DNA from: an archaeon
GTDB taxonomy: Archaea > Aenigmatarchaeota > Aenigmatarchaeia > GW2011-AR5
NCBI GenBank assembly: GCA_035289405.1
Contig: DATDXH010000092.1
Location: forward strand, 1 to 27,857
Reading direction: 5' to 3'
DNA length: 27,857 nucleotides
The notes beneath the pieces were generated by a model that did not search any database, had not been told where the DNA came from, and saw only the letters and a list, made by a program, of their open reading frames with translations. Shown here in pieces: positions 1,364 to 18,632 of this stretch. How positions within the stretch are numbered: position 1 is the stretch's first letter; the number at the start of each line of letters is the position of its first letter. A program made the position numbers and the translations under genes.

Positions 1364-1608
1364 TAGATTTACACTAAGGTAGTTTTTAGATTTAAAATGT
1401 CTACTATGTTATAGTTAACCAAGTAAAGAATCCGGATATTATAACTTGGTTTACTATGCTCAGAAAGCAAAGCTTTCTGGCATGCCGAAGAACTTTGTTC
1501 TTCGAGCATATGTGACCAACTTGTGTTATACGAGAAAGAACGAAGTTCTTTCTGTACAACAAGAGCTTGCTCTTGTTTGTATACCAAATATTAAGTTGGT
1601 CAACTATA
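1361..1608. repeat. Array of TA-bounded hairpins with two Y-shaped twin-hairpin units
   Basis: Hairpins 1361-1406 (TAGTAGA/TCTACTA) and 1410-1457 (ATAGT-t-AACCAAGT/ACTTGGTT-t-ACTAT); twin hairpin 1457-1508; hairpin 1509-1608 (TGACCAACTT/AAGTTGGTCA) with twin hairpin 1531-1579 in its loop. Confidence 0.85.
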
Positions 1609-1625
1609 ATAGAGGATGTGATTTT

Positions 1626-2588
1626 ATGGACTGGAATGGCGTTAGAGTTCTTGTAACAGGCGCGGACGGGTTTATGGGTTCGCATCTTACAGAGCGGCTT
1701 TTACGTGAAAGGGCAGACGTTTCTGTTTATGTACGCGGAACATCTGACAGTGGCACTGTCCAATACAAGCTGAAAAATATAAACCACATACAAAAGGATC
1801 TTAAATCAATAGTTACTGGCAACATAGGGAATGCCGATTCTATAAAACTAATAGAAAAAAACAATCCACAAATAATTTTTCACCTCGCGGCCGATGCTTA
1901 TGTGCCGAATTCTTTCGAGCACCCTCTTGAGGTTATGGAAACAAATGTCATAGGCACACTAAATGTACTACACGCTTCTATGCACCTGAAAGAACTTCAG
2001 CAGGTTGTTTGTACATCTTCGAGCGAGATATACGGTTCTTCCAGCATACCCATAAACGAGGACCACCCACTCAACCCTACCTCGCCTTATGCCGCATCAA
2101 AGGTGGCTGCAGACAGATATTGCTTTTCTTACTGGAATACCTATAAACTACCCGTTGCGATAATAAGGCCGTTCAACACTTACGGCCCTAGACATACCTA
2201 TGACGTAATACCAAAATTCATCAACCTAGCTCTACAAAACAAGAACCTTACTATATACGGGACTGGAAACCAGACAAGAGATTTTACGTACGTCGACGAC
2301 ATGATAAGCGCATTTATTTTAATGGGATCGGAAAAGAAGGCTATTGGCCAGGCCGTAAATTTTGGCACTTCAAAAGACATAAGCATAAAGGATGTGGCCG
2401 AAAAGATAATAAAAATAAGCAGGTCAGCCGCAAGGACGGTGCATGTGAAAGAAAGACTTGCAGAAGTTACAAGACTTTGCTGCGATTACAATAAGGCTAA
2501 TAAGCTGTTTGGATGGGCCCCTACTATAGGGATAGATGAAGGTCTAAAAAGAAATATAGAATGGGCTTCTGCAAGTACAAAATTCTAG
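1626..2588 (+). CDS. NAD-dependent NDP-sugar 4,6-dehydratase, LegB-like
   Basis: VTGADGFMGSHL, TSSSEIYG, HPLNPTSPYAASKVAAD, RPFNTYGPR and EVTRLCCD match the LegB-like dehydratase group. Start moved to ATG 1626 (GTGAT site upstream); the ORF-track extension runs through the repeat array. Confidence 0.8.
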   Translation: MDWNGVRVLVTGADGFMGSHLTERLLRERADVSVYVRGTSDSGTVQYKLKNINHIQKDLKSIVTGNIGNADSIKLIEKNNPQIIFHLAADAYVPNSFEHPLEVMETNVIGTLNVLHASMHLKELQQVVCTSSSEIYGSSSIPINEDHPLNPTSPYAASKVAADRYCFSYWNTYKLPVAIIRPFNTYGPRHTYDVIPKFINLALQNKNLTIYGTGNQTRDFTYVDDMISAFILMGSEKKAIGQAVNFGTSKDISIKDVAEKIIKISRSAARTVHVKERLAEVTRLCCDYNKANKLFGWAPTIGIDEGLKRNIEWASASTKF

Positions 2589-2607
2589 ACATGAGGCAAT
2601 GATAACG

Positions 2608-3540
2608 ATGCGTATAATTATAATAGGCCCAACACTTTTGACAAGGCATTGTTTGGAGGCAATTATAACAGAAGGCAAAGATGAAATATTGGCTGTTTAC
2701 GTACTCGACGACACATTTGCATGGGTTAAAAGCCGTTTTGCAATTATGGATGATACAGCGCAAAAAAATAACATAAATCTTTACAAGGTATCAAATATAA
2801 ACGACAGGTCTGTAATTGATCAGATTAAAAAATTCCAGCCTGACGTAATTCTCGAGCTTGGCTGGTCCCAGATAATTTCACCTGAGATACTTTTGATACC
2901 TAAAAAGGGCTGTATAGGTGTTCATGCGTCATTGCTGCCTAAGAATAGGGGTGCTGCATCGCTTAATTGGGCACTTATCAAAGGCGAGAAGAAAACGGGC
3001 GTCACACTTTTTTATCTTGCTGAGAGGCCAGATGACGGTGATATAATAGCCCAAAAGGAATTCGCTGCGGACGAACGGGATGACATTGAAACGTTGCACG
3101 CAAAATCAGACCTCGCAAGCGTTGAACTTCTAATGGAAAATATGGGTGCTATAAGAAATGATACTGTTAAAAGAATACCGCAAGACATGAAACAAGTCAC
3201 GTACACACCTAGAAGAAAACCGGAAGACGGGGTAATAAGCTGGACAAGACCCTCCATTGAAATTTACAACTGGGTAAGGGCCCAGTCGCACCCTTTTCCA
3301 GGCTCATTCACATTTTGGAAAAACAAAAAATTATATGTGTGGCGCGTAAAAATTTCTGAATACAAGTCTGTCTCAAGGCCTGGAGAGATTTCCATGATTA
3401 AAAACAAACAGGGCGTACTTGTAAATACGACTGATAACATGATCCTCTTGGAACGTGTTCAATTTGATAATGGAATAGAGATGTGGGCCGATGAACTAGC
3501 AAGAAAATACAACCTTCAAGATGGTGATTTCCTTGGATAA
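2608..3540 (+). CDS. N10-formyl-THF-dependent formyltransferase (Fmt/ArnA N-terminal-like), probably a sugar N-formyltransferase
   Basis: GVHASLLPKNRG, PDDGDII and a C-terminal Fmt-type domain (PEDGVISW...EIYNWVRA...PFPGSFT). Alternative start 2599. Confidence 0.85.
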   Translation: MRIIIIGPTLLTRHCLEAIITEGKDEILAVYVLDDTFAWVKSRFAIMDDTAQKNNINLYKVSNINDRSVIDQIKKFQPDVILELGWSQIISPEILLIPKKGCIGVHASLLPKNRGAASLNWALIKGEKKTGVTLFYLAERPDDGDIIAQKEFAADERDDIETLHAKSDLASVELLMENMGAIRNDTVKRIPQDMKQVTYTPRRKPEDGVISWTRPSIEIYNWVRAQSHPFPGSFTFWKNKKLYVWRVKISEYKSVSRPGEISMIKNKQGVLVNTTDNMILLERVQFDNGIEMWADELARKYNLQDGDFLG

Positions 3541-4669
3541 TAACATAAATAATGCTATGTCATGGCTACTGAATTCCGGAATACAAAATACAAAAGACGA
3601 CAATACTGGCAGTTTTAATGCTTGGTATGACATGTCTACAGGAACCTACCCATTTATTTATTCAGAGATAACTGGGTACGGAATAAGTACACTGGTTTAT
3701 GCAAACTCTATCAACAAGGATGATGCCTACAAGGAACATGCAAAGACTGCGGCCAACTGGATTATAAATTTAATGACTGCGAATGGCAACATTATTGCAA
3801 GAATTTATTCTGGCCACAAACCTGATTTAAAGTATTTTGGTAGTAATGTATCTTACACATTCGATAATGGAATGGTTCTTTCTGGTCTTGTAAGTATTTA
3901 CTTGGCAACAAAAGATGACAAGTACCTACTAGCAGCGATAAAAATTGCAGAATCCATCTTGAAGACGCAAAAAAGTACAGGACTATTCAATGCAGCTTAC
4001 GATGCAGCAACCGGGGAATATATTGATATTCAGGACAAGTGGTCGACACAGTCTGGAAGCTATCACGCAAAGCTTGCCATAGGGCTTCTTGATTTGTACG
4101 AGGCAACACATAATAAAATTTTTAAAGACGCAGCGGTTGGCGTATGCAACGCATCACTTGGGTTGCAGGCTGATGACGGCAGGTTTGTAACACAACAGAA
4201 TGAGAACAGCACACATATGCATCCACACTGCTATTCGGCAGAAGGACTCGTCTACGCGGGAATTGGCCTTGGTGAAAAGCGGTTCCTTGATAGTGCCTTG
4301 CGCGCTGTTAAATGGGCCCTTGATAACCAACTTAGTAATGGTGGCATGCCGTGCAAATATGTCGATGGCAAATTCATTGAACATGAACGCAGCGATACGC
4401 TTGCGCAGGTTCTTAGATTAGGGGTAATCCTGAAGGATATCGGATTGCTCGTTGGTTATGAAAAGCGTCTGGAGCGGCTAGCTTCTAGGCTTGTTCAGTT
4501 CCAAAACACTTCAGTTGATAATAGCGGTGGATTTTTCTACGGAACGGAGCTTGACGGAACAAAAAAACCTCACCTAAATTCGTGGGTGACCATGTTTTCC
4601 ATACAAGCAATGCACATGTACAATAGTTACACAAAAGGCGAAAGAATAGAATTAAAGCCTTTTGTATAG
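3533..4669 (+). CDS. Uncharacterised alpha/alpha-toroid protein (prenyltransferase/squalene-cyclase-repeat-like)
   Basis: Repeated helix + Q-x-x-x-G-x-F motifs (QKSTGLF, QADDGRF, QLSNGGM) and YSEITGY motif. Start TTG 3533 proposed from GGTGAT 5 nt upstream; ATG 3521 and 3557 are alternatives. Confidence 0.6.
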   Translation: MDNNINNAMSWLLNSGIQNTKDDNTGSFNAWYDMSTGTYPFIYSEITGYGISTLVYANSINKDDAYKEHAKTAANWIINLMTANGNIIARIYSGHKPDLKYFGSNVSYTFDNGMVLSGLVSIYLATKDDKYLLAAIKIAESILKTQKSTGLFNAAYDAATGEYIDIQDKWSTQSGSYHAKLAIGLLDLYEATHNKIFKDAAVGVCNASLGLQADDGRFVTQQNENSTHMHPHCYSAEGLVYAGIGLGEKRFLDSALRAVKWALDNQLSNGGMPCKYVDGKFIEHERSDTLAQVLRLGVILKDIGLLVGYEKRLERLASRLVQFQNTSVDNSGGFFYGTELDGTKKPHLNSWVTMFSIQAMHMYNSYTKGERIELKPFV

Positions 4670-4679
4670 CCATAAGTTT

Positions 4680-5927
4680 ATGGATAAAGTTTTTTCTATT
4701 ATAGAAAAAGAAAAACAACGCCAGCTTGATACGTTAGAACTTATCCCTTCGGAGAACTACGTTTCGCAGGCCGTATTAAGGGCTTTAGGGTCTGAAATGA
4801 ATAATAAGTACTCTGAGGGTTACCCTGGCAAGCGCTATTACGGCGGCAACATTTTTGTAGATGAAATAGAGAACATAGCTATAGAACGTGCAAAGAAACT
4901 CTTTGGTACAAACCACGCAAACGTACAGCCCTATTCAGGCAGCCCAGCCAATATGGCGACTTGTTTTGCATTGCTGGAACCAGGTGAAAAATTAATGGGC
5001 ATGAGCCTTTCTTATGGTGGACATCTAACACACGGTCATGCTGTGAACTTTTCAGCCCGATATTACGGCTCTGCGCAGTACCCAACAGGAAAAGACGGGT
5101 GGCTAGACTACGATCTTATAGAAGAAATAGCGAGACGCGAAAGACCAAAACTTATTTTTTGTGGTGCAACAGCCTATTCGCGCGTCTTCGATTTTAGACG
5201 TCTCGGAGAGATAGCGACATCAGTGGATGCATTTCTTGTGGCCGATGTCGCGCACATAGCAGGTCTAATAATCGGGGGCGTTCATCCAACCCCAGTTGGC
5301 ATAGCTGATGTTATTACAACAACTACACACAAGACGCTGCGCGGGCCGAGGGGTGCGATGATATTGTGTAATGGCAACAGTTCTGACCCGCTCAAGGTGC
5401 CGGAAAAGACGCGCAATAACCTACCGTCTCTGATCGATCGTGCAGTATTTCCAGGCTTGCAGGGTGGTCCTCATAACCACACTACGGCCGGTATAGCTGT
5501 TGCTCTTGGCGAGGCATTGGAGCCATCCTTCGCTGAATATGCAAAACAGATAGTCAAAAACGCAAAAGTTTTGGGTGCGACTCTTATAGAGAACGGTCTT
5601 GATGTGGTCACTGGTGGCACTGATAACCACCTATTACTTCTTGACCTAACCAAAATCGGAATCACTGGCAAAGAGGCAGAAACATTACTTGATATTGCTG
5701 GAATAACTGTCAACAAGAATACAGTACCTTTCGATAAAAGAAAACCGTTCGATCCTAGTGGCATAAGACTGGGCACACCTGTCGTGACTACAAGAGGTAT
5801 GAAAGAAAGTCATATGGGGTTAATCGGCGACATGATTGTTGATGTTCTGATCAGGAAAAAGAAACCAGAATATGTTAGGGAGAGTGTGTTCGATCTTTGT
5901 AAAGACTTTCCAGCTTTTGCATGGTGA
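4680..5927 (+). CDS. glyA: Serine hydroxymethyltransferase, bacterial-type
   Basis: PSEN, NKYSEGYPGKRYYGG, NVQPYSGSPAN, GGHLTHG, PLP lysine in TTTTHKTLRGPRG, FPGLQGGP. Confidence 0.96.
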   Translation: MDKVFSIIEKEKQRQLDTLELIPSENYVSQAVLRALGSEMNNKYSEGYPGKRYYGGNIFVDEIENIAIERAKKLFGTNHANVQPYSGSPANMATCFALLEPGEKLMGMSLSYGGHLTHGHAVNFSARYYGSAQYPTGKDGWLDYDLIEEIARRERPKLIFCGATAYSRVFDFRRLGEIATSVDAFLVADVAHIAGLIIGGVHPTPVGIADVITTTTHKTLRGPRGAMILCNGNSSDPLKVPEKTRNNLPSLIDRAVFPGLQGGPHNHTTAGIAVALGEALEPSFAEYAKQIVKNAKVLGATLIENGLDVVTGGTDNHLLLLDLTKIGITGKEAETLLDIAGITVNKNTVPFDKRKPFDPSGIRLGTPVVTTRGMKESHMGLIGDMIVDVLIRKKKPEYVRESVFDLCKDFPAFAW

Positions 5928-5931
5928 TTGT

Positions 5932-6786
5932 ATGGCGGCACAAATACTGGACGGCATGAAAATAGCATCAAGTATAGAGGAAGATGTTAAAAGAGTGCTT
6001 AGTAATTCCGATGTCAAGCCTTCAATAGTATTTTTTGTTGTGGGCGACAACCAAGCAACCAAAGTTTACGTAAGGAAAAAACAGGAGGCATGTGAAAGGG
6101 TTGGAATTTTATCTAATGTTGTCTCATTTAATGGGGACGTTTCGGAGAATGAGTTGATAGAAAAAATACAAGAGGTAAACTCCTCCAACACAACCGGTAT
6201 AATAGTCCAGCTGCCGCTGCCAAAGCATATAAATGAGAACTTAGTCGTCTCATCTATTTCTACGGAAAAAGACGTGGATTGCATGCACCCAGAAAATATA
6301 GGCAAACTTCTCTACTCTTCGGAGCTTGTACCTTGCACTGTGTCAGGGATAATGAGACTTATAGAAGAAACAGGTACAAATGTCGCTGGCAAGAATGTGA
6401 CTGTGATAAACAGGCGACATATAGGTAAGTGCCTTTCCATACTACTGTTAAACATGAAAGCCACCGTGTCGGTGTGCGGACGTAACAGCCAACTAGAACT
6501 TTATACAAAACACGCTGACATAGTAATTAGTGCTGCCGGATCTCCGGGGTTGATAAAAAGAGACATGATAAAACCGGGAGCGGTTGTAATTGATGTTGGA
6601 ATAAGCATGTACGAAGGAAAAATAAGGGGTGATGTAGACGACAACGTCAGAGATATCGCCTCGTTTGTCACGCCTGTGCCGGGCGGCGTAGGTCCCATGA
6701 CAGTTGCAATGTTAATGAAGAATACGTCTGACATGGCTGTGAGAAACTCAATTAGCCATGATTTATACAAGAAACACAACATTTAA
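5932..6786 (+). CDS. folD: Methylenetetrahydrofolate dehydrogenase/cyclohydrolase
   Basis: YVRKK, VQLPLP, KDVD, PCT, VIDVG and TPVPGGVGPMTVAML; GGTGAT site before ATG 5932. Confidence 0.93.
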   Translation: MAAQILDGMKIASSIEEDVKRVLSNSDVKPSIVFFVVGDNQATKVYVRKKQEACERVGILSNVVSFNGDVSENELIEKIQEVNSSNTTGIIVQLPLPKHINENLVVSSISTEKDVDCMHPENIGKLLYSSELVPCTVSGIMRLIEETGTNVAGKNVTVINRRHIGKCLSILLLNMKATVSVCGRNSQLELYTKHADIVISAAGSPGLIKRDMIKPGAVVIDVGISMYEGKIRGDVDDNVRDIASFVTPVPGGVGPMTVAMLMKNTSDMAVRNSISHDLYKKHNI

Positions 6787-6811
6787 TTTTTGTTGTTACA
6801 CGGTGTAATTA

Positions 6812-7252
6812 ATGGAAACTAATTTGATATTATTGATCGCCCTTGGTATTGCATTTAATGTTTCTATAAGGCTAATCTTGCGAGGTTCAAGACATTTTAT
6901 AGGAGTAGATGCTATGCCGGCATTTCCAATTGCCGCTGGTTACCTCTACGGATTTACCGGCGGATTATGGGCGGGTATAGTGATTTCTGTAAGCTATTAT
7001 TTCATGGGTGGCAAGAACATTTCATACGCACCTCTTATAGTTTTAATTAACGCGCTCGTTGGAGCATTTTCTACATTATTTGCTGGCTGGACGTTCGTAA
7101 CGGCAGGATTTTTACTACTTTTTGTTTATCATGCGATTTCGCTGTTCGTAGTCTCTACGTTAAGCGAACCAGGGCCTGGATATTTCACTTTTATGGTGTT
7201 AAATCTCGTATCTTCCGGTTTGATAATTTATTTTGCCTCACAATTTATATGA
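6812..7252 (+). CDS. Small polytopic membrane protein, possibly ECF S-component-like
   Basis: 146 aa, almost entirely hydrophobic, about 5 helices; IAAGYLYGFTGGLWAGIV resembles the helix-2/3 G-P-x-x-G-x-x-x-G pattern of S-components. Confidence 0.5.
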   Translation: METNLILLIALGIAFNVSIRLILRGSRHFIGVDAMPAFPIAAGYLYGFTGGLWAGIVISVSYYFMGGKNISYAPLIVLINALVGAFSTLFAGWTFVTAGFLLLFVYHAISLFVVSTLSEPGPGYFTFMVLNLVSSGLIIYFASQFI

Positions 7253-7315
7253 GTAGTCAGAATTTTAGCGTAGTATATTTCTAGGCTTGTACCAAAATGT
7301 GGTATATTTATGGCG

Positions 7316-7322
7316 TTTAAAT
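7316..7322 (+). promoter_or_regulatory. TATA box
   Basis: TTTAAAT 29 nt upstream of ATG 7345, same context as the 384 box. Confidence 0.6.
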
Positions 7323-7344
7323 CCTTTTTTCAGGTTTGTTATCT

Positions 7345-8457
7345 ATGAAAATCGCCATCATAGTCGGAACAAGACCAGAAATAATAAAATTCAGTCCAAT
7401 AATACGTATATGCGAACGTGATAAAATAGATTATTTTGTAATACATACCGGGCAGCACTACTCGTATGAAATGGACAGCATATTCTTCAAGCAGTTGAAG
7501 TTGCCGCAGCCCAAATACAATCTTGGCATAAAATCTTCGGCGCCTCATCTACAGGGAGAACATACAGGCAAGATGCTGATAGAAATAGAAAAAATACTGC
7601 TGAAGGAAATGCCTTCTATAGTTCTTGTTCTTGGCGATACAAATACTGTTCTCGCGGGCGCACTAACGACGAAGAAAATAACTACTACCAAGTCTTTCAC
7701 AGGATTCGATATCAAACTTGGCCATATCGAAGCTTGTATAAGGAGCCACTGGGACGAGATGCCTGAAGAGGTGAACAGGAAAATAGCAGACCATTTATCG
7801 GATTTTCTTTACGCACCTACAGCCAAGTCAGTCGATAATGCCCATAGGGAGAATATAGACATGAGTAAAATAATTATAACAGGGAACACAATAGTTGATG
7901 CGGTTCATCAGATATCGGAAATAGCGAAAGATGTGAAAATATTGGATGACATGAAACTCGACGGGCAGAAGTATCTTGTTGCAACGATGCATCGCCAAGA
8001 GAATGTCAATTCCGAAAAAAGATTCGTAGGCATATTGAAAGGCCTCGAAAAAATATATAAGAAATATCGTATGCCAATTGTTTATCCTATACATCCCCGT
8101 ACACGAAAAATTATAGATAAGATGGGCATTGTGATGCCTGAAGGCGTGATAGAAACAGAGCCTCTGGGGGTTTTAGAATTTTTCCAGCTGCAGAAAAACG
8201 CATGTTTGGTGCTGACAGATTCTGGAGGAGTTCAGGAGGAAACATGCATATTGGGTGTCCCGTGCGTTACCCTCAGGGATAATACAGAAAGACCAGAAAC
8301 GCTTGATGTTGGAAGCAATATACTGGCAGGCGCCGACCCAGATGTAATACTCTCCTGCGTTGACGAGATGCTGACGAGGCCACGAGAATGGAAAAACCCG
8401 TTTGGCGATGGCAATGCAGCCGAAAAAATTATTCAACATATTCTTAAGAATGTCTAG
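7345..8457 (+). CDS. wecB: UDP-N-acetylglucosamine 2-epimerase (non-hydrolysing)
   Basis: GTRPEIIK, HTGQHY, GDTNT, MPEEVNR, TGNTIVDA, DSGGVQEE, RDNTERPE. Confidence 0.92.
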   Translation: MKIAIIVGTRPEIIKFSPIIRICERDKIDYFVIHTGQHYSYEMDSIFFKQLKLPQPKYNLGIKSSAPHLQGEHTGKMLIEIEKILLKEMPSIVLVLGDTNTVLAGALTTKKITTTKSFTGFDIKLGHIEACIRSHWDEMPEEVNRKIADHLSDFLYAPTAKSVDNAHRENIDMSKIIITGNTIVDAVHQISEIAKDVKILDDMKLDGQKYLVATMHRQENVNSEKRFVGILKGLEKIYKKYRMPIVYPIHPRTRKIIDKMGIVMPEGVIETEPLGVLEFFQLQKNACLVLTDSGGVQEETCILGVPCVTLRDNTERPETLDVGSNILAGADPDVILSCVDEMLTRPREWKNPFGDGNAAEKIIQHILKNV

Positions 8458-8479
8458 GTCAATATGTATTTGTGATTTT

Positions 8480-9199
8480 ATGAAAGATTTTATGTCTGTC
8501 GTAATACCTGCCTATAACGAGGAGCAGAATATAAAAAGGATACAGGATGAACTCATGCCAGTTATGAAAAGTATGCCACTGACTTACGAGATTATAGTAG
8601 TCGACGATGGTTCTACCGACAATACTTATAATGAGGCCCTGAAAATTTCAAAGACAAATAAAAAAGTCCGGATAGTAAGACACAAGAGGAACATGGGCCT
8701 TGCAGCGGCCACACGTACTGGCATAAAAAGTTCTCGAGGCAATATTTCAGTTTTTCTGGATTCTGATTTTACCTTTCATCCCAGCGAGATGCCTAAACTT
8801 TATAAAAAATATAAAGAAACTGGTTGCGATTGCGTTGTCGGCTCCCATTTTGGCCCGAGTGGCGATCCTGATCTATTGTTCCACAGGCTTGTATTGAGCA
8901 AAGGCGTTAACAAGCTTTACAGCACATTTCTTGGCAAAAAGATATCCACAATAAGCTCCATTTTTCGTCTTTACAAAACAGCCGAAATAAAGAAACTCAA
9001 GCTAAACAGCAAGGGATTTGACATATGCGCTGAAATCCTTGTCAGGATGATACAAAATAAATGCCACATAGAGGAGGTTCCGGTAAGGCTGACTACTAGG
9101 ATATATGGCGAGTCAAAGCTTAACAACAGGAAAGAATTTGTAAATCATATTAAGATGCTCTCTAAGGTGGCGTCGTGGAAGATAAAGGGAAAACAATGA
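8480..9199 (+). CDS. GT2 polyprenol/dolichol-phosphate sugar synthase-like glycosyltransferase
   Basis: SVVIPAYNEE, VDDGSTD, DSD motif, GESKL. GTGAT upstream of ATG 8480; ATGA overlap with the next gene. Confidence 0.88.
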   Translation: MKDFMSVVIPAYNEEQNIKRIQDELMPVMKSMPLTYEIIVVDDGSTDNTYNEALKISKTNKKVRIVRHKRNMGLAAATRTGIKSSRGNISVFLDSDFTFHPSEMPKLYKKYKETGCDCVVGSHFGPSGDPDLLFHRLVLSKGVNKLYSTFLGKKISTISSIFRLYKTAEIKKLKLNSKGFDICAEILVRMIQNKCHIEEVPVRLTTRIYGESKLNNRKEFVNHIKMLSKVASWKIKGKQ

Positions 9200-10740
9200 A
9201 ATCCCCAAAAATAGCTAATTGGCACATACTAATCTTGATACTTATTTTTGCATTAATTTTAAGACTCCCTGGCATAAGCGCAAATTTTACCGGCGATGAG
9301 ATAGATACAGTTGGTCCTGCAAGGAACTTTGTTGTTGCTGGAGATTTCAGAGCGTTTGATACGGCACATGGACCATCTTATAATTTCACACACCCTCCTG
9401 TAAGGACGCTTCTGTATTCTTACTGGGCACTCATGTTCGGGTTTTCAGATATAGCCTTGAGATTGGTTTCAATAGTGTTTGATATATTTTTTATTGTTGT
9501 AGTTTTTTTAATTGCTAAAAGTGTCTATTCTGAAAAAGTCAGCATCATTGCTGCCGGACTAGCTGCCGTTTCAAGATATTCTATATGGTTTGCTGACACA
9601 GCCAGCGTTGATACTGGGCATTTTTTGTTCACGACGTCAGCAGCGGTCTTGTTCTTCCTTATTTATGTAAAAAATGACGACAAAAGATATCTTGGAACAT
9701 CTTTTATTTTCCTTCTCGTAAGCATGCTGACAAAATTTAGTACAATCATAATTTTTATACCTATTATCGTTGGGGCATATTTTTACAAAAAAAGTACAGT
9801 TGGTGCAGTTTTAATTGTATCGGCTCTCTTATGTACAATATTTTTCATGTTTGTGATTTCTTCTATATTTAACAACGGTCAGATGTTTGAAGAGCCTCTC
9901 AAGGTATTTTTAGAGTACTCAAGTAGCAGCTCCCCAAGTATTGGCGAATACCTGTTTAATAAAGTATTCAAGGTTGCGACAATATCGTGGCAGATGACAC
10001 CATTCTTCGCCATAATGGTCTTTGCGGCCATTTATACACTTAAAAAAACGAAGGATTTCTTCATCATGGCATGTTGGCTAATTTTAGGGTTTTTTATTGT
10101 ATTTGTGCCGTATGGTCAAGATTCACAGAGATATTTTGGTGTAGCACTGACCCCTGCTTACATACTTGTAGCCAAATACATTGAGTCATTTGATTTCAGG
10201 AACAAGGTCATGTTACTATCGGTATTAGCTACTGTCGCTATCTCTTTATTTATTGGGCTCAATGACTTGATGGGATATTATGCTCCAGCTTACCTTGGAA
10301 TATTCTACATAGCGGCAGTTTTGCCTATAATGCACAGGAAATATATGAAACCTGTCCTTATGGGAGGATTCTTGGGGCTTAGCCTGTTTTTTGCACTTAC
10401 ACACGCCAGTAATTTGTACATAGTGTCAGACTCGGTTGATGCGTTGTCAAAAAATGTAATTGATAACAATTACATGTACAAGGAAGTATGGGCGAGCAAA
10501 GACATAGCCTACTATATAACCCCAAAAAATGAAACGGTCTACCTAAATTTAATACCAGATATAAACTTCTTCACTATGGAAAATCTAAGAGAGAACAATG
10601 TCATGTATATAGCATTTTATTCAACTCCAGACGAGAATAAAATTATCGAAGCGGCAGAATTTTGTTTGGATGCATACACTTACAGTTCTTACGGACATAC
10701 AATAGGCTTCGTATGCCGTGTAGATCAAGGCAAGCTTTAG
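9196..10740 (+). CDS. GT-C (ArnT/PMT-like) membrane glycosyltransferase
   Basis: Many TM segments; first loop GDEIDT...HPP, then LRLVS and KFS motifs typical of GT-C. Confidence 0.8.
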   Translation: MKSPKIANWHILILILIFALILRLPGISANFTGDEIDTVGPARNFVVAGDFRAFDTAHGPSYNFTHPPVRTLLYSYWALMFGFSDIALRLVSIVFDIFFIVVVFLIAKSVYSEKVSIIAAGLAAVSRYSIWFADTASVDTGHFLFTTSAAVLFFLIYVKNDDKRYLGTSFIFLLVSMLTKFSTIIIFIPIIVGAYFYKKSTVGAVLIVSALLCTIFFMFVISSIFNNGQMFEEPLKVFLEYSSSSSPSIGEYLFNKVFKVATISWQMTPFFAIMVFAAIYTLKKTKDFFIMACWLILGFFIVFVPYGQDSQRYFGVALTPAYILVAKYIESFDFRNKVMLLSVLATVAISLFIGLNDLMGYYAPAYLGIFYIAAVLPIMHRKYMKPVLMGGFLGLSLFFALTHASNLYIVSDSVDALSKNVIDNNYMYKEVWASKDIAYYITPKNETVYLNLIPDINFFTMENLRENNVMYIAFYSTPDENKIIEAAEFCLDAYTYSSYGHTIGFVCRVDQGKL

Positions 10741-17977: not shown

Positions 17978-18355
17978 CTATTTTGGTGAATTATCTTTCT
18001 TATTTAGCCATTCTATCTCGGGAAACGTACCGTCCATTCTGCCGTCTTGGACATATTTTACACCGAGCTTCATGCATGTCCATGCCCGGGTCAATTCCTT
18101 GGAAAGATAACCAACATGATCTCTCATTATGCCTGGCACGTCTTCCACTATCTGTCTGTATATGTCTTGTGGCAGTTTGCCCACCCAGAATTTTTTAATG
18201 ACATTTATGTTTTTGTAATCGCAAAGACCGGCCTCGATGACATCATTGTTTATCCTTATCAAAAAGTACCCAATTGGATCCATCTCTTCGTCGCCTTTGG
18301 GCTTGCATTCCACTGCTTCAGCCTCGGTCTGCGGTTTTTTCATGTCAAAGTGCAT
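17978..18355 (-). CDS. DUF4346 domain protein
   Basis: DPIGYFLI...G...HVGYLSKEL..A...G..YVQD matches the DUF4346 pattern. Start 18355 or 18343. Confidence 0.75.
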   Translation of the reverse strand: MHFDMKKPQTEAEAVECKPKGDEEMDPIGYFLIRINNDVIEAGLCDYKNINVIKKFWVGKLPQDIYRQIVEDVPGIMRDHVGYLSKELTRAWTCMKLGVKYVQDGRMDGTFPEIEWLNKKDNSPK

Positions 18356-18373
18356 TTAGTCACCAGATGTTTA

Positions 18374-18432
18374 TCCGAGAATGCATTGAAAACTGACTTC
18401 ATGAAAGCAGATGAAACTCAATGCATTCTGGA
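18374..18432. repeat. Inverted repeat
   Basis: Perfect 12-bp arms AGAATGCATTGA (18378-18389) / TCAATGCATTCT (18418-18429), extendable by TCC/GGA. Confidence 0.75.
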
Positions 18433-18435
18433 CGC

Positions 18436-18483
18436 TATGTTCCATGAAACCCACGACTTTAGTCGTGAGATATTAGGAACATA
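18436..18483. mobile_element. Possible IS200/IS605-family end relic inside a TA-bounded unit
   Basis: GAAACCCACGACTTTAGTCGTGAG (18446-18469) resembles IS605/IS1341 end hairpins; it is enclosed by TATGTTCC / GGAACATA. No transposase is present in the window. Confidence 0.45.
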
Positions 18484-18536
18484 TCATTTATTAAGCGTAA
18501 CATTTATGAACCTTCGTTTCTACGAACAATCGGATT

Positions 18537-18632
18537 TATAGTTAACCCAGTAAAGATCCTTAATATGATTTACTGGGTTCACATATAACTCACAAGGAAG
18601 TAATATTCTTTTTGTTTCCTTGTAGAGTTATA
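18537..18632. repeat. Two tandem TA-bounded hairpin units
   Basis: 18537-18587 AACCCAGTAAA / TTTACTGGGTT; 18584-18632 TATAACTC-ACAAGGAA / TTCCTTGT-a-GAGTTATA. Homologous to the reverse complement of 15946-16091 without the Y unit. Confidence 0.85.

What the first reader, a model, noticed from the sequence alone, without database searches (positions are those of the whole stretch)
1626..7252. Self-contained folate one-carbon cassette embedded in a glycan locus
One tightly packed + strand block runs LegB-like dehydratase, formyltransferase, toroid protein, glyA, folD, small membrane protein. GlyA makes 5,10-methylene-THF from serine and FolD converts it to 10-formyl-THF, the donor used by sugar N-formyltransferases (established). 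Archaea do not formylate initiator tRNA, so the Fmt-like enzyme needs another acceptor. GlyA is of the bacterial THF-using type. The block starts right after the largest palindrome array and looks more AT-rich by eye than the radical SAM genes. Inference: an acquired module that carries its own formyl-donor supply for surface-glycan formylation; I do not know of a description of this arrangement.
Basis: partly seen in the sequence, partly recalled or inferred. Interest (0 to 1): 0.82.

Follow-up and report, generated by a model that had tools for sequence, protein, structure and literature searches.

The report
Formyl-donor genes inside archaeal glycan locus
A tiny groundwater archaeon (Aenigmatarchaeota, DPANN) keeps the folate enzymes that make the formyl donor (GlyA, FolD) in the same operon as an ArnA-like formyltransferase and its barrel-shaped partner. 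The operon lies inside the organism's surface-sugar locus, so the cofactor supply appears to be wired to a sugar-formylating step, although the sugar and the source of its amino group are unknown.

Summary
On the + strand, 1626-7252 encodes an SDR, a formyltransferase (FT), an alpha/alpha toroid (TOR), GlyA, FolD and a small membrane protein. The operon continues with WecB, a polyprenyl-phosphate GT2 and a GT-C (to 10740).

- **FolD-FT link:** it is strong. The same linkage recurs in 8 of 11 related FT-TOR loci, with 5-formyl-THF cyclo-ligase and sometimes FolC added. A related contig lacks SDR1/FT/TOR and FolD together. In 151 genomes of the phylum, 23 of 25 FolD holders have a formyltransferase, 19 within 4 kb.
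- **No other formyl-THF user found:** the genome (74% complete) shows no other formyltransferase, and no Fhs, PurH or deformylase.
- **Not self-contained:** GlyA is the only copy, groups with thymidylate-synthase-linked GlyA of relatives, and stays in the locus when FT and FolD are absent.
- **Not foreign:** FolD groups with other DPANN FolDs, not with a bacterial donor.

FT resembles the ArnA formyltransferase domain more than Fmt, but has Gly where the canonical catalytic Asn sits. No sugar aminotransferase was found. TOR is fused to FT in relatives and folds like AGE-type epimerases.

I found no paper describing this arrangement. This scan has noted the same theme before on other DNA, in nonulosonic-acid operons.

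The parts
1364..1625 (.). Intergenic spacer with a palindrome array. It is the left junction of the SDR1-FT-TOR insert relative to the empty-site contig L150.
   Evidence: 9 inverted repeats. In L150 the SDR0-GlyA spacer is only 48 nt.
1626..2588 (+). SDR1: extended short-chain dehydrogenase acting on a nucleotide sugar. Specificity unresolved (4,6-dehydratase, UDP-GlcA decarboxylase or epimerase type).
   Evidence: Pfam Epimerase/GDP_Man_Dehyd. NCBIfam LegB-like 264 bits, below its 475 cut-off. PDB best hits: Pal 182, UDP-GlcA 4-epimerase 159, RmlB 156, UXS 140 bits. Motif TSSSEIYG. Preceded by Ugd plus NTP-transferase in G007, G002, G005 and L158.
2599..3540 (+). FT: ArnA/Fmt-architecture formyltransferase (N- and C-terminal domains). 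Public gene calls start at 2608.
   Evidence: ArnA NF005998 216 bits, Fmt 174 bits (below its 201.5 cut-off); PDB ArnA FT domain 151.7 bits against Fmt 124. Motif IGVHASLLP has Gly at the usual Asn position.
3521..4669 (+). TOR: (alpha/alpha)6 toroid of a large unnamed family. Overlaps FT by 20 nt and is fused to FT in relatives.
   Evidence: 1123 cluster representatives. Fusions to FT, WecB, hexapeptide acyltransferase and NTP-transferase. pLDDT 96. Foldseek best matches are cellobiose/glucose 2-epimerases, AGE and YihS, TM about 0.75. FT-TOR complex prediction gave weak support.
4680..5927 (+). GlyA, serine hydroxymethyltransferase. Only copy in the genome.
   Evidence: SHMT 517 bits; NF000586 555 bits, above its 335 cut-off. 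Single hit in the genome. Tree.
5872..6786 (+). FolD, methylene-THF dehydrogenase/methenyl-THF cyclohydrolase. Only copy in the genome. An alternative start is at 5932.
   Evidence: Tree. Phyletic link to formyltransferases.
6812..7252 (+). smTM: 146-aa polytopic membrane protein of a DPANN-restricted family. Function unknown; it looks like an ECF S-component by predicted structure only.
   Evidence: No Pfam hit even at E 10. Atlas structure match to an ECF S component (TM 0.77) and to MreD. It follows GlyA or FolD in G004, the ena 8344-bp contig and L150.
7345..8457 (+). WecB, non-hydrolysing UDP-GlcNAc 2-epimerase. A conserved member of the module.
   Evidence: TIGR00236 378 bits, above its 210 cut-off; NeuC model only 57 bits. 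Syntenic in all related loci.
8480..9199 (+). GT2a: polyprenyl-phosphate glycosyltransferase (DPMS/GtrB/ArnC class).
   Evidence: PDB: Pyrococcus DPMS 99.5 bits, GtrB 68, ArnC 66. NCBIfam: AglJ 81, ArnC 76 bits.
9175..10740 (+). PMT2a: GT-C glycosyltransferase of the PMT_2/ArnT-like family. Presumed user of the lipid-linked sugar on the outer face of the membrane.
   Evidence: PF13231 45 bits. No PDB sequence match. Always follows GT2a in relatives.

Best explanation
The block is the cytoplasmic half of a glycan-decoration operon (1626-10740) in a DPANN archaeon. An ArnA-type formyltransferase, working with its toroid partner TOR, puts a formyl group from 10-formyl-THF on an amino sugar.

**Formyl supply.** GlyA makes 5,10-methylene-THF from serine. 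FolD oxidises it to 10-formyl-THF. In this genome the FT is the only detectable user of that product.

**Export.** The sugar precursor is shaped by SDR1 and WecB. The sugar is then loaded onto polyprenyl phosphate by GT2a and transferred outside the membrane by the GT-C enzyme PMT2a. This is the same layout as ArnA-FT, ArnC and ArnT.

**Shown here.** Gene identities, operon packing, conserved linkage, joint gain or loss of FT/TOR with FolD, and FT-TOR fusion in relatives.

**Inferred.**
- The acceptor is a nucleotide-activated sugar.
- GT2a and PMT2a carry the formylated product.
- FolD serves only this FT, while GlyA is shared with general one-carbon needs.
For: **Linkage of FolD to FT-TOR**
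- FT-TOR loci that carry FolD within a few kb are the window, G004, G007, G002, G021, the ena 8344-bp contig, L158 and L159. The extra folate genes are 5-FCL in G007, G002, G021, L158 and L159, and FolC in G021 and L159.
- L150 keeps SDR0-GlyA-smTM-WecB-GT2a-PMT2a but lacks SDR1/FT/TOR and FolD together.
- Among 41 relatives, FolD occurs in 11 genomes, all of which have a formyltransferase hit.
- Among 151 genomes of the phylum, 23 of 25 FolD holders have PF00551, against 16 of the other 126. In 19 of those 23, FolD and the formyltransferase lie within 4 kb.

**No other use for 10-formyl-THF in this genome**
- One formyltransferase only.
- No PurH, no Fhs and no deformylase.

**FT is sugar-directed**
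- It is nearer to the ArnA FT domain than to Fmt.
- Homologues sit next to DegT aminotransferases (L152, L154), or next to a PIG-L deacetylase in a nonulosonic-acid cluster that also has GlyA, FolD and a fused 5-FCL (L153).
- Other homologues are fused to GT2 or to a CMP-transferase domain.

**Precursor and export**
- Ugd (AglM-like, 494 bits) and an NTP-transferase precede SDR1-FT-TOR in G007, G002, G005 and L158.
- GT2a belongs to the DPMS/GtrB/ArnC class.

**Precedent**
- N-formylated sugars exist in archaeal N-glycans: 5-N-formyl-legionaminic acid in Halorubrum sp. PV6 (PMC6137143).
Against: - **No amine source found.** No DegT-type sugar aminotransferase was found in the window or in the genome. 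The one weak hit is a class-V aminotransferase. None was found in G002 or G005 either, and 9 of 11 FT-TOR loci have none nearby. The genome's PIG-L deacetylase is on an unrelated, transposase-rich contig.
- **Unusual FT active site.** FT and its TOR-linked relatives have Gly where the canonical catalytic Asn of the N-x-H motif sits (the role of that Asn is from memory of ArnA, PurN and Fmt work). The chemistry may therefore differ.
- **Three FT-TOR loci lack folate genes nearby:** L152, L154 and L160.
- **GlyA is in the locus without FT and FolD** in L150.
- **Half of the FolD-formyltransferase pairs in the phylum are PurN-type**, in purine-synthesis settings. The rule is therefore 'FolD sits by its user', not something specific to glycans.
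- **The genome is 74% complete.** Absences are not proven.
- **No expression or glycan data.** No RNA runs hold the stretch.
Confidence: 0.6

Rival explanations
1. Housekeeping neighbourhood. GlyA and FolD are simply the lineage's ordinary one-carbon genes, serving thymidylate and other needs, and happen to lie in a conserved stretch next to glycan genes. There is no dedicated supply relationship to FT.
For: - GlyA is single-copy.
- It is sister to the ThyA-linked GlyA of G013.
- In relatives GlyA sits next to ThyA, ThyX or FolC.
- It persists in the locus without FT and FolD in L150.
- A ThyA-like domain protein exists on C57.
Against: - FolD is not needed for thymidylate synthesis.
- FolD is found in only 25 of 151 genomes of the phylum, and 23 of these have a formyltransferase, mostly adjacent.
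- FolD and FT/TOR are present or absent together.
- 5-FCL and FolC join the same spot in relatives.
- One homologue is an FT-5FCL fusion.
Confidence: 0.15
2. FT-TOR acts on something other than an aminotransferase-derived amino sugar. One option is that it builds an N-formyl hexosamine or uronic acid from a pre-existing amine (GlcN-1-P, UDP-GlcN, or a de-N-acetylated sugar), with TOR as an AGE-like epimerase/isomerase step. Another is that FT uses formyl-THF for a different transfer or hydrolysis, because its catalytic Asn is missing.
For: - There is no DegT in 9 of 11 FT-TOR loci, nor in G000, G002 or G005.
- TOR is fused to FT, to hexapeptide N-acyltransferases, to NTP-transferase and to WecB. 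These are the enzymes of UDP-HexNAc making and 2-epimerisation.
- TOR's fold matches N-acylglucosamine, cellobiose and glucose 2-epimerases.
- Asn is replaced by Gly in the TOR-linked clade only.
- WecB is always present.
- A PIG-L deacetylase exists in the genome.
Against: - No enzyme of this fold is known to supply or handle an amine in this way.
- L152 and L154 do carry DegT next to FT-TOR.
- Ugd and SDRs next to FT in several loci point to an Arn-like uronic-acid route.
- Agl32, which has the same structural neighbours, is a glucuronyl C5-epimerase acting on a lipid-linked glycan (PMC13308652).
Confidence: 0.2
3. Initiator-tRNA or purine formylation. FT is a true Fmt, as public annotation says, or it feeds purine synthesis.
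For: - Public records name close homologues 'methionyl-tRNA formyltransferase'.
- FT has the two-domain Fmt architecture.
Against: - The TIGR00460 score is 174 bits, below its 201.5 cut-off, and lower than the ArnA score.
- FT is present in only 6 of 40 relatives.
- No deformylase was found in 5 genomes.
- No PurH was found.
- Archaea do not formylate the initiator tRNA (established knowledge).
- FT is fused to a sugar-enzyme-like barrel.
Confidence: 0.02

Closest known systems
Arn (L-Ara4N) pathway of E. coli/Salmonella: Ugd, ArnA (dehydrogenase + formyltransferase), ArnB, ArnC, ArnD, ArnE/F, ArnT
   Same: - FT's best sequence and PDB matches are the ArnA formyltransferase domain.
- An SDR sits directly upstream, like a split ArnA in reverse order.
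- Ugd is adjacent in relatives.
- A GT2 that loads polyprenyl phosphate and a GT-C of the ArnT-like PMT_2 family follow in the same operon.
   Different: - No ArnB-type aminotransferase was found, and ArnD was not searched for.
- The acceptor cannot be lipid A in an archaeon.
- FT has Gly at the catalytic Asn position.
- TOR, WecB, GlyA and FolD have no counterpart in arn operons.
- All scores are far below the family cut-offs.
Sugar N-formyltransferases of nonulosonic-acid and deoxy-amino-sugar pathways (predicted HrrPV6_1050 in the Halorubrum sp. PV6 5-N-formyl-legionaminic acid cluster, PMC6137143; PseJ, WlaRD, VioF)
   Same: - Folate-dependent N-formylation of a surface sugar.
- An archaeal N-glycan with a formylated sugar is documented.
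- A 43%-identical homologue (L153) sits in a NeuB/CMP-transferase cluster with GlyA and FolD.
   Different: - No NeuB was found in this genome.
- WecB here is of the non-hydrolysing type.
- PDB sugar formyltransferases match far more weakly (34-65 bits) than ArnA does.
- The Halorubrum paper does not mention folate supply genes ('tetrahydrofolate' occurs 0 times).
AglQ (Haloferax volcanii) and Agl32 (Halobacterium salinarum glucuronyl C5-epimerase): archaeal single-domain helical-barrel enzymes of N-glycosylation
   Same: - They have the same set of structural neighbours as TOR: cellobiose 2-epimerase, mannose isomerase, AGE, YihS and unsaturated glucuronyl hydrolase (PMC3827465, PMC13308652).
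- They lie in glycosylation clusters together with Ugd (AglM).
   Different: - They are not reported as fused or coupled to a formyltransferase.
Gtr-type and DPMS/PMT-type lipid-carrier decoration (GtrA flippase, GtrB GT2, GtrC GT-C)
   Same: A small membrane protein, a polyprenyl-phosphate GT2 and a GT-C lie in one operon. GT2a's best PDB match is archaeal Dol-P-Man synthase.
   Different: - smTM has no GtrA (PF04138) signal, and it is missing from most related loci that keep GT2a-PMT2a.
- No folate or formyl link is known in Gtr systems.

Membership tests
Methionyl-tRNA formyltransferase (Fmt) | Score at or above the equivalog cut-off of TIGR00460 | tested here: not met
   173.7 bits against a cut-off of 201.5. 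The ArnA model scores higher, at 216 bits.
Methionyl-tRNA formyltransferase (Fmt) | Housekeeping distribution, together with peptide deformylase | tested here: not met
   Strong matches in 6 of 40 relatives. No PF01327 hit in G000, G002, G004, G007 or G021.
Folate-dependent formyltransferase superfamily (PurN/Fmt/ArnA) | Asn-His-Asp catalytic set within N-x-H-x-S-L-L-P ... D | tested here: inconclusive
   His109, SLLP and the downstream Asp (PDDGD) are present. Asn is replaced by Gly here and in 76 of 105 nearest homologues. The role of the Asn is recalled from memory, not tested.
Arn pathway | ArnA-type formyltransferase domain | tested here: inconclusive
   It is the best match (NF005998 216 bits over the FT part; PRK06988 191 bits; PDB 2bln/1z7e 151.7 bits), but below the cut-offs of 777 and 316.
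Arn pathway | UDP-GlcA supply (Ugd) and a C4-oxidising decarboxylase (ArnA C-terminal domain) | tested here: inconclusive
   No Ugd in the own genome by tblastn. Ugd is adjacent in G007, G002, G005 and L158. SDR1 matches UXS (140 bits) no better than dehydratases or epimerases.
Arn pathway | ArnB (DegT-family) aminotransferase | tested here: not met
   The only PF01041 hit in the genome is 25 bits, on a class-V aminotransferase. The genome is 74% complete.
Arn pathway | ArnC-type GT2 and ArnT-type GT-C | tested here: inconclusive
   GT2a is in the same class but closer to DPMS (99.5 bits against 66 bits for ArnC). PMT2a reaches the PF13231 cut-off, but has no PDB sequence match.
Arn pathway | ArnD deformylase and lipid A acceptor | not tested
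Archaea have no lipid A (established knowledge).
Legionaminic/pseudaminic acid (nonulosonic acid) pathway | NeuB-type synthase and a hydrolysing NeuC-type 2-epimerase | tested here: not met
   No PF03102 hit in G000, G002, G004 or G021, and only a marginal 26.5-bit hit (E 1.6e-6, just over the 22.1 cut-off) in G007. WecB fits the non-hydrolysing model (378 bits) and not NeuC (57 bits). The LegB model scores 264 bits, below its 475 cut-off.
AGE superfamily (N-acylglucosamine/cellobiose 2-epimerases, YihS) | (alpha/alpha)6 barrel fold | tested here: met
   Foldseek TM 0.72-0.77, E about 1e-11, for a model with pLDDT 96.
AGE superfamily (N-acylglucosamine/cellobiose 2-epimerases, YihS) | Conserved catalytic His pair / Arg of AGE enzymes | not tested
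   The family's invariant residues are W15, E49, Y53, D115, K184, H234, Y238, E241, Q296 and R299. No residue-level superposition was available.
ECF transporter S component (for smTM) | Match to PF12822/PF07155 or to a FolT model | tested here: not met
   No Pfam hit at E up to 10. There is only a predicted-structure likeness (TM 0.77) and low feature scores of 0.77-0.79.

The most novel reading that the evidence does not exclude
The Gly-for-Asn formyltransferase and its toroid partner are one two-part enzyme, fused in some relatives. It makes an N-formyl sugar without any DegT aminotransferase. For example, it could take a pre-existing hexosamine amine and combine formylation with an AGE-like epimerisation or isomerisation. 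In Aenigmatarchaeota this unit has drawn a whole folate kit (FolD, 5-FCL, FolC, GlyA) into the glycan locus. That would be an undescribed route to formylated surface sugars, and the first function for a family with more than 1000 cluster representatives.
Probability: 0.15. Interest if true: 0.8.

Novelty: new variant of a known kind. Interest (0 to 1): 0.55.

Why it matters
DPANN archaea live on other cells and have very few biosynthetic genes. Whatever they keep for their surface is therefore likely to matter for attachment or recognition.

Here a folate branch that serves nothing else detectable is kept next to its single user. This gives a clean, testable case of cofactor supply being packaged with a glycan-modifying enzyme.

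It also corrects the public label 'methionyl-tRNA formyltransferase' for these archaeal proteins. And it ties a large unnamed barrel-protein family to N-acyl transfer on sugars.

If a formylated sugar is confirmed, it would extend N-formyl glycans from haloarchaea to DPANN.

Tried and rejected
- **Fmt or purine role for FT:** rejected.
- **FolD feeding formate-THF ligase:** no Fhs in 5 genomes.
- **Nonulosonic-acid pathway in this genome:** no convincing NeuB (one marginal 26.5-bit hit, in G007 only), and WecB is non-hydrolysing.
- **Recent bacterial origin of FolD:** the tree puts the window plus G004 with other DPANN FolDs. The support is only moderate, and deeper branches are unresolved.
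- **A glycan-specific GlyA paralogue:** rejected by the tree.
- **SDR1 as a definite UDP-GlcA decarboxylase from its S-S-E motif:** dropped, because GDP-mannose-type dehydratases share an S-E motif (from memory).
- **smTM as GtrA or as a recognised ECF S component:** no family hit. The word-based search gave only 4 homologues.
- **FT-TOR binding test:** ipSAE 0.59 against a best control of 0.08, runs agree in 100% of contacts, partner pLDDT at least 89, verdict 'weak support'. In the tool's calibration the pass mark was reached by 51 of 78 solved complexes and 2 of 108 mismatched pairs, but only 5 of those 78 solved complexes scored 0.60 or under, and all 4 mismatches that passed did. I count it as weak evidence only.
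- **Expression evidence:** no RNA runs hold the stretch. The DNA occurs in groundwater and soil metagenomes.
- **Literature:** searches for folD or glyA with sugar formyltransferases, DPANN, Aenigmarchaeota, or Arn in archaea found no description.
- **Swiss-Prot structure search:** it did not return AglQ or Agl32.

Full report
**What is there.** The window is the whole contig C92 of a 725-kb assembly that is 74% complete. Nearest named homologues come from Candidatus Aenigmatarchaeota, a DPANN lineage. The DNA occurs in groundwater and soil metagenomes.

ORF listing and family scans give this + strand operon:
- SDR1, 1626-2588
- a two-domain formyltransferase FT, 2599-3540
- a toroid protein TOR, 3521-4669, overlapping FT by 20 nt
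- GlyA, 4680-5927
- FolD, 5872-6786
- a 146-aa membrane protein smTM, 6812-7252
- WecB, 7345-8457
- a polyprenyl-phosphate GT2 (GT2a), 8480-9199
- a GT-C of the PMT_2 family (PMT2a), 9175-10740

Around it lie more GT2, GT4 and GT-C genes, four B12-radical SAM genes, SDRs and a Wzx flippase. On a longer copy of the same contig, AglB/STT3 lies upstream.

The 262-nt spacer in front of SDR1 holds nine inverted repeats.

GC3 is 0.33-0.44 from SDR1 through PMT2a. The genome median is 0.50 and the radical SAM genes are at 0.53-0.59. The block is thus somewhat AT-rich, but the low GC3 covers the whole operon to 10740, not just the folate genes, and it lies within the genome's normal spread.

**Copies and other users.** The genome has one SHMT, one FolD and one Formyl_trans_N gene, all in this block. 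I found:
- no formate-THF ligase
- no PurH, FolC, 5-formyl-THF cyclo-ligase, Ugd or DegT by tblastn with relatives' proteins
- no 5-FCL family hit
- no ThyX
- no peptide deformylase
- no NeuB

A ThyA-like domain sits in a MtrA-ThyA-PterinBD fusion on C57. Within the limits of 74% completeness, the only detectable consumer of FolD's product is FT.

**FT is not Fmt.** It scores 216 bits on the ArnA model over the formyltransferase part, 191 bits on the stand-alone ArnA-type formyltransferase model, and 174 bits on Fmt, below that model's 201.5 cut-off. Against solved structures, the ArnA formyltransferase domain gives 151.7 bits and Fmt 124. Strong homologues occur in only 6 of 40 related genomes.

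Homologues elsewhere always sit in sugar clusters:
- next to DegT aminotransferases (L152, L154)
- in a NeuB/CMP-transferase/PIG-L cluster as an FT-5FCL fusion followed by GlyA and FolD (L153)
- as fusions to GT2 or to a cytidylyltransferase domain

One oddity stands out. The motif reads IGVHASLLP, with Gly where ArnA, PurN and Fmt have their catalytic Asn (the role of that Asn is from memory). Gly is found in 76 of 105 nearest homologues and in all TOR-linked ones. More distant bacterial homologues, the FT-5FCL fusion and the short formyltransferase of G010 all keep Asn. I have no explanation for this.

**The FolD-FT link.** Fetching 12-20 kb around the homologues in relatives gave these orders:
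- **G004:** FT-TOR-GlyA-FolD-smTM-...-WecB-GT2a-PMT2a.
- **G007 and G002:** NTP-transferase-Ugd-SDR1-FT-TOR-WecB-FolD-5FCL-(GlyA)-GT2a-PMT2a.
- **G021:** FolC and a YhhQ-type transporter next to a 694-aa FT-TOR fusion, then 5FCL-GlyA-FolD-WecB-GT2a-PMT2a.
- **G010:** WecB-FolD-5FCL-GlyA-GT2a-PMT2a, with a DegT plus short formyltransferase pair about 9 kb away.

Further contigs repeat the pattern:
- The ena 8344-bp contig matches the window's order.
- L158 has the full G007-type order.
- L159 has SDR-FT-TOR-FolD-FolC-5FCL-GlyA-GT2-PMT_2.

Three FT-TOR loci (L152, L154, L160) have no folate genes within 8-9 kb. That makes 8 of 11 informative FT-TOR loci with FolD.

A related contig, L150, has SDR0 (78% identical), GlyA, smTM, WecB, GT2a and PMT2a in the same order, but lacks SDR1/FT/TOR and FolD together. 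This is a filled-site and empty-site pair for both inserts.

Phyletic counts agree. Among 41 relatives, FolD occurs in 11 genomes, all with a formyltransferase hit, while GlyA occurs in 24. In an even sample of 151 genomes of the phylum, FolD passes its cut-off in 25. Of these, 23 have a formyltransferase, against 16 of the other 126, and in 19 the two genes lie within 4 kb. About half of those partners are PurN-like, in purine-synthesis settings (for example G025: 5FCL-GlyA-YggS-FolD-PurH). The general rule is that FolD sits beside whichever formyltransferase uses its product. The glycan version is one form of that rule. Related genomes are not independent, so these are counts, not statistics.

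**GlyA is different.** Where it lies outside the glycan locus in relatives, it sits next to ThyA (G013), ThyX (G016) or FolC (G022, G005). In a maximum-likelihood tree the window's GlyA is sister to the ThyA-linked GlyA of G013 (98/96). Locus-resident GlyAs do not form a clade of their own. Together with L150, this shows that GlyA is the lineage's ordinary single-copy enzyme, shared with thymidylate metabolism. It is not a dedicated second copy.

**Was the module acquired?** The FolD tree pairs the window with G004 (100). It places them loosely (93 SH-aLRT) with other Aenigmatarchaeota and an Iainarchaeum sequence. The FolDs of G002, G007 and G010, from the same genus, form a separate well-supported clade. 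So two FolD lineages occupy the locus within one genus, and no bacterial donor stands out. This points to gain, loss and exchange within DPANN. It does not show direction, and it does not support a recent foreign origin.

**TOR.** It belongs to a family of 1123 cluster representatives without a Pfam model. Members are fused to FT, to WecB-type 2-epimerases, to hexapeptide N-acyltransferases and to NTP-transferases. In relatives, TOR accompanies every long FT.

The AlphaFold2 model (pLDDT 96) matches cellobiose and glucose 2-epimerases, mannose isomerase, YihS and N-acylglucosamine 2-epimerase at TM about 0.75. These are the same neighbours reported for the haloarchaeal N-glycosylation enzymes AglQ and Agl32. 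Agl32 is a glucuronyl C5-epimerase that acts on a lipid-linked glycan (PMC3827465, PMC13308652). I could not test sequence homology to them.

An FT-TOR complex prediction gave ipSAE 0.59 against a best control of 0.08, which the tool rates as weak support. In its calibration the pass mark was reached by 51 of 78 solved complexes and 2 of 108 mismatched pairs, but only 5 of those solved complexes scored 0.60 or under and all 4 passing mismatches did. The runs agreed in 100% of contacts, and the partner's pLDDT was at least 89.

**Which sugar?** Unresolved.
- **For an Arn-like route:** FT's similarity to ArnA, Ugd (AglM-like, 494 bits) and SDRs next to FT in several loci, and the GT2 plus GT-C pair.
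- **Against it:** no DegT aminotransferase in the window, in the genome (the one weak hit is a class-V aminotransferase), in G002 or G005, or in 9 of 11 FT-TOR loci.
- **Another possible amine source:** a PIG-L deacetylase exists on contig C24, but among transposases.
- **SDR1:** its specificity cannot be read from similarity.

**smTM.** It belongs to a DPANN-restricted family. It resembles ECF S components only by predicted structure, and it follows GlyA even in L150. A role in folate uptake is a lead, not a finding.

**Known or new?** Folate-dependent sugar N-formylation, the Arn layout, and a formylated sugar in an archaeal N-glycan (PMC6137143) are all known. I found no paper describing folate one-carbon genes embedded in glycan loci. 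This scan's own notes record the same theme on other DNA, mostly in nonulosonic-acid operons of DPANN and CPR organisms. The present case differs in three ways: the TOR-coupled, Asn-less formyltransferase; the absence of an aminotransferase; and the polyprenyl-phosphate GT2 plus GT-C setting. I class it as a new variant of a known kind.

Noticed in passing
window 17978-18355 (-); G000 C57 (L069 987-2456, -); L043 699-1289 (-): A stand-alone PterinBD-DUF4346 protein lies inside the glycan locus between SDRs and B12-radical SAM genes. A homologue lies in G021's locus. The same domain ends a 489-aa MtrA-like + ThyA-like + PterinBD fusion on contig C57. This is a second pterin/folate link in the locus, and its function is unknown. 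The + strand ORF 18047-18541 that overlaps it has no family hit and may be spurious.
   Followed up: partly
L043 13972-15912 (G021); L159 11941-13296: FolC (TIGR01499, 351 bits) and a YhhQ/Vut_1-type transporter sit directly beside the FT-TOR fusion in G021. FolC also lies between FolD and 5-FCL in L159. Some relatives therefore carry up to four folate genes in the glycan locus.
   Followed up: partly
L031, L037, L039, L040 (FolD of G004, G002, G007, G010): Two distinct FolD lineages, only 41-44% identical to the window's FolD in one of them, occupy the same locus within one genus. They come with two gene orders: GlyA-FolD-smTM, and WecB-FolD-5FCL-GlyA.
   Followed up: partly
L055 4714-6483; L046 2732-4675 and 6815-9448; L045 13001-14752: Inteins or homing-endonuclease inserts occur inside glycan-locus genes. 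The B12-radical SAM gene upstream of the window on the longer contig carries an Intein_splicing domain. G005 has a 647-aa SDR split by a LAGLIDADG-type insert and an 877-aa radical SAM gene with a large insert.
   Followed up: no
L055 6520-6783 (just upstream of the window's start): An 87-aa PQ-loop/MtN3 (SemiSWEET-like) membrane protein lies between a radical SAM gene and a GT2 in the same glycan island.
   Followed up: no
G000 C24 (L157 1-7991): The genome's only PIG-L family deacetylase lies on a short contig with two DDE transposases, a GNAT acetyltransferase, a radical SAM/SPASM protein and a Fic protein.
   Followed up: partly
L048 7498-11522 (G025), L049 (G038): In another family of the same order, the folate genes form a purine-type cluster: 5-FCL, GlyA, a YggS-like PLP protein, FolD, a PurH-like protein and a PurN-like formyltransferase.
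   Followed up: no
GlyA tree: GlyA sequences of the same genus fall in at least three well-supported places, and the window's GlyA is closest to that of another genus (G013, 72% identical). This suggests exchange of GlyA within the family, or imperfect genus assignment.
   Followed up: no
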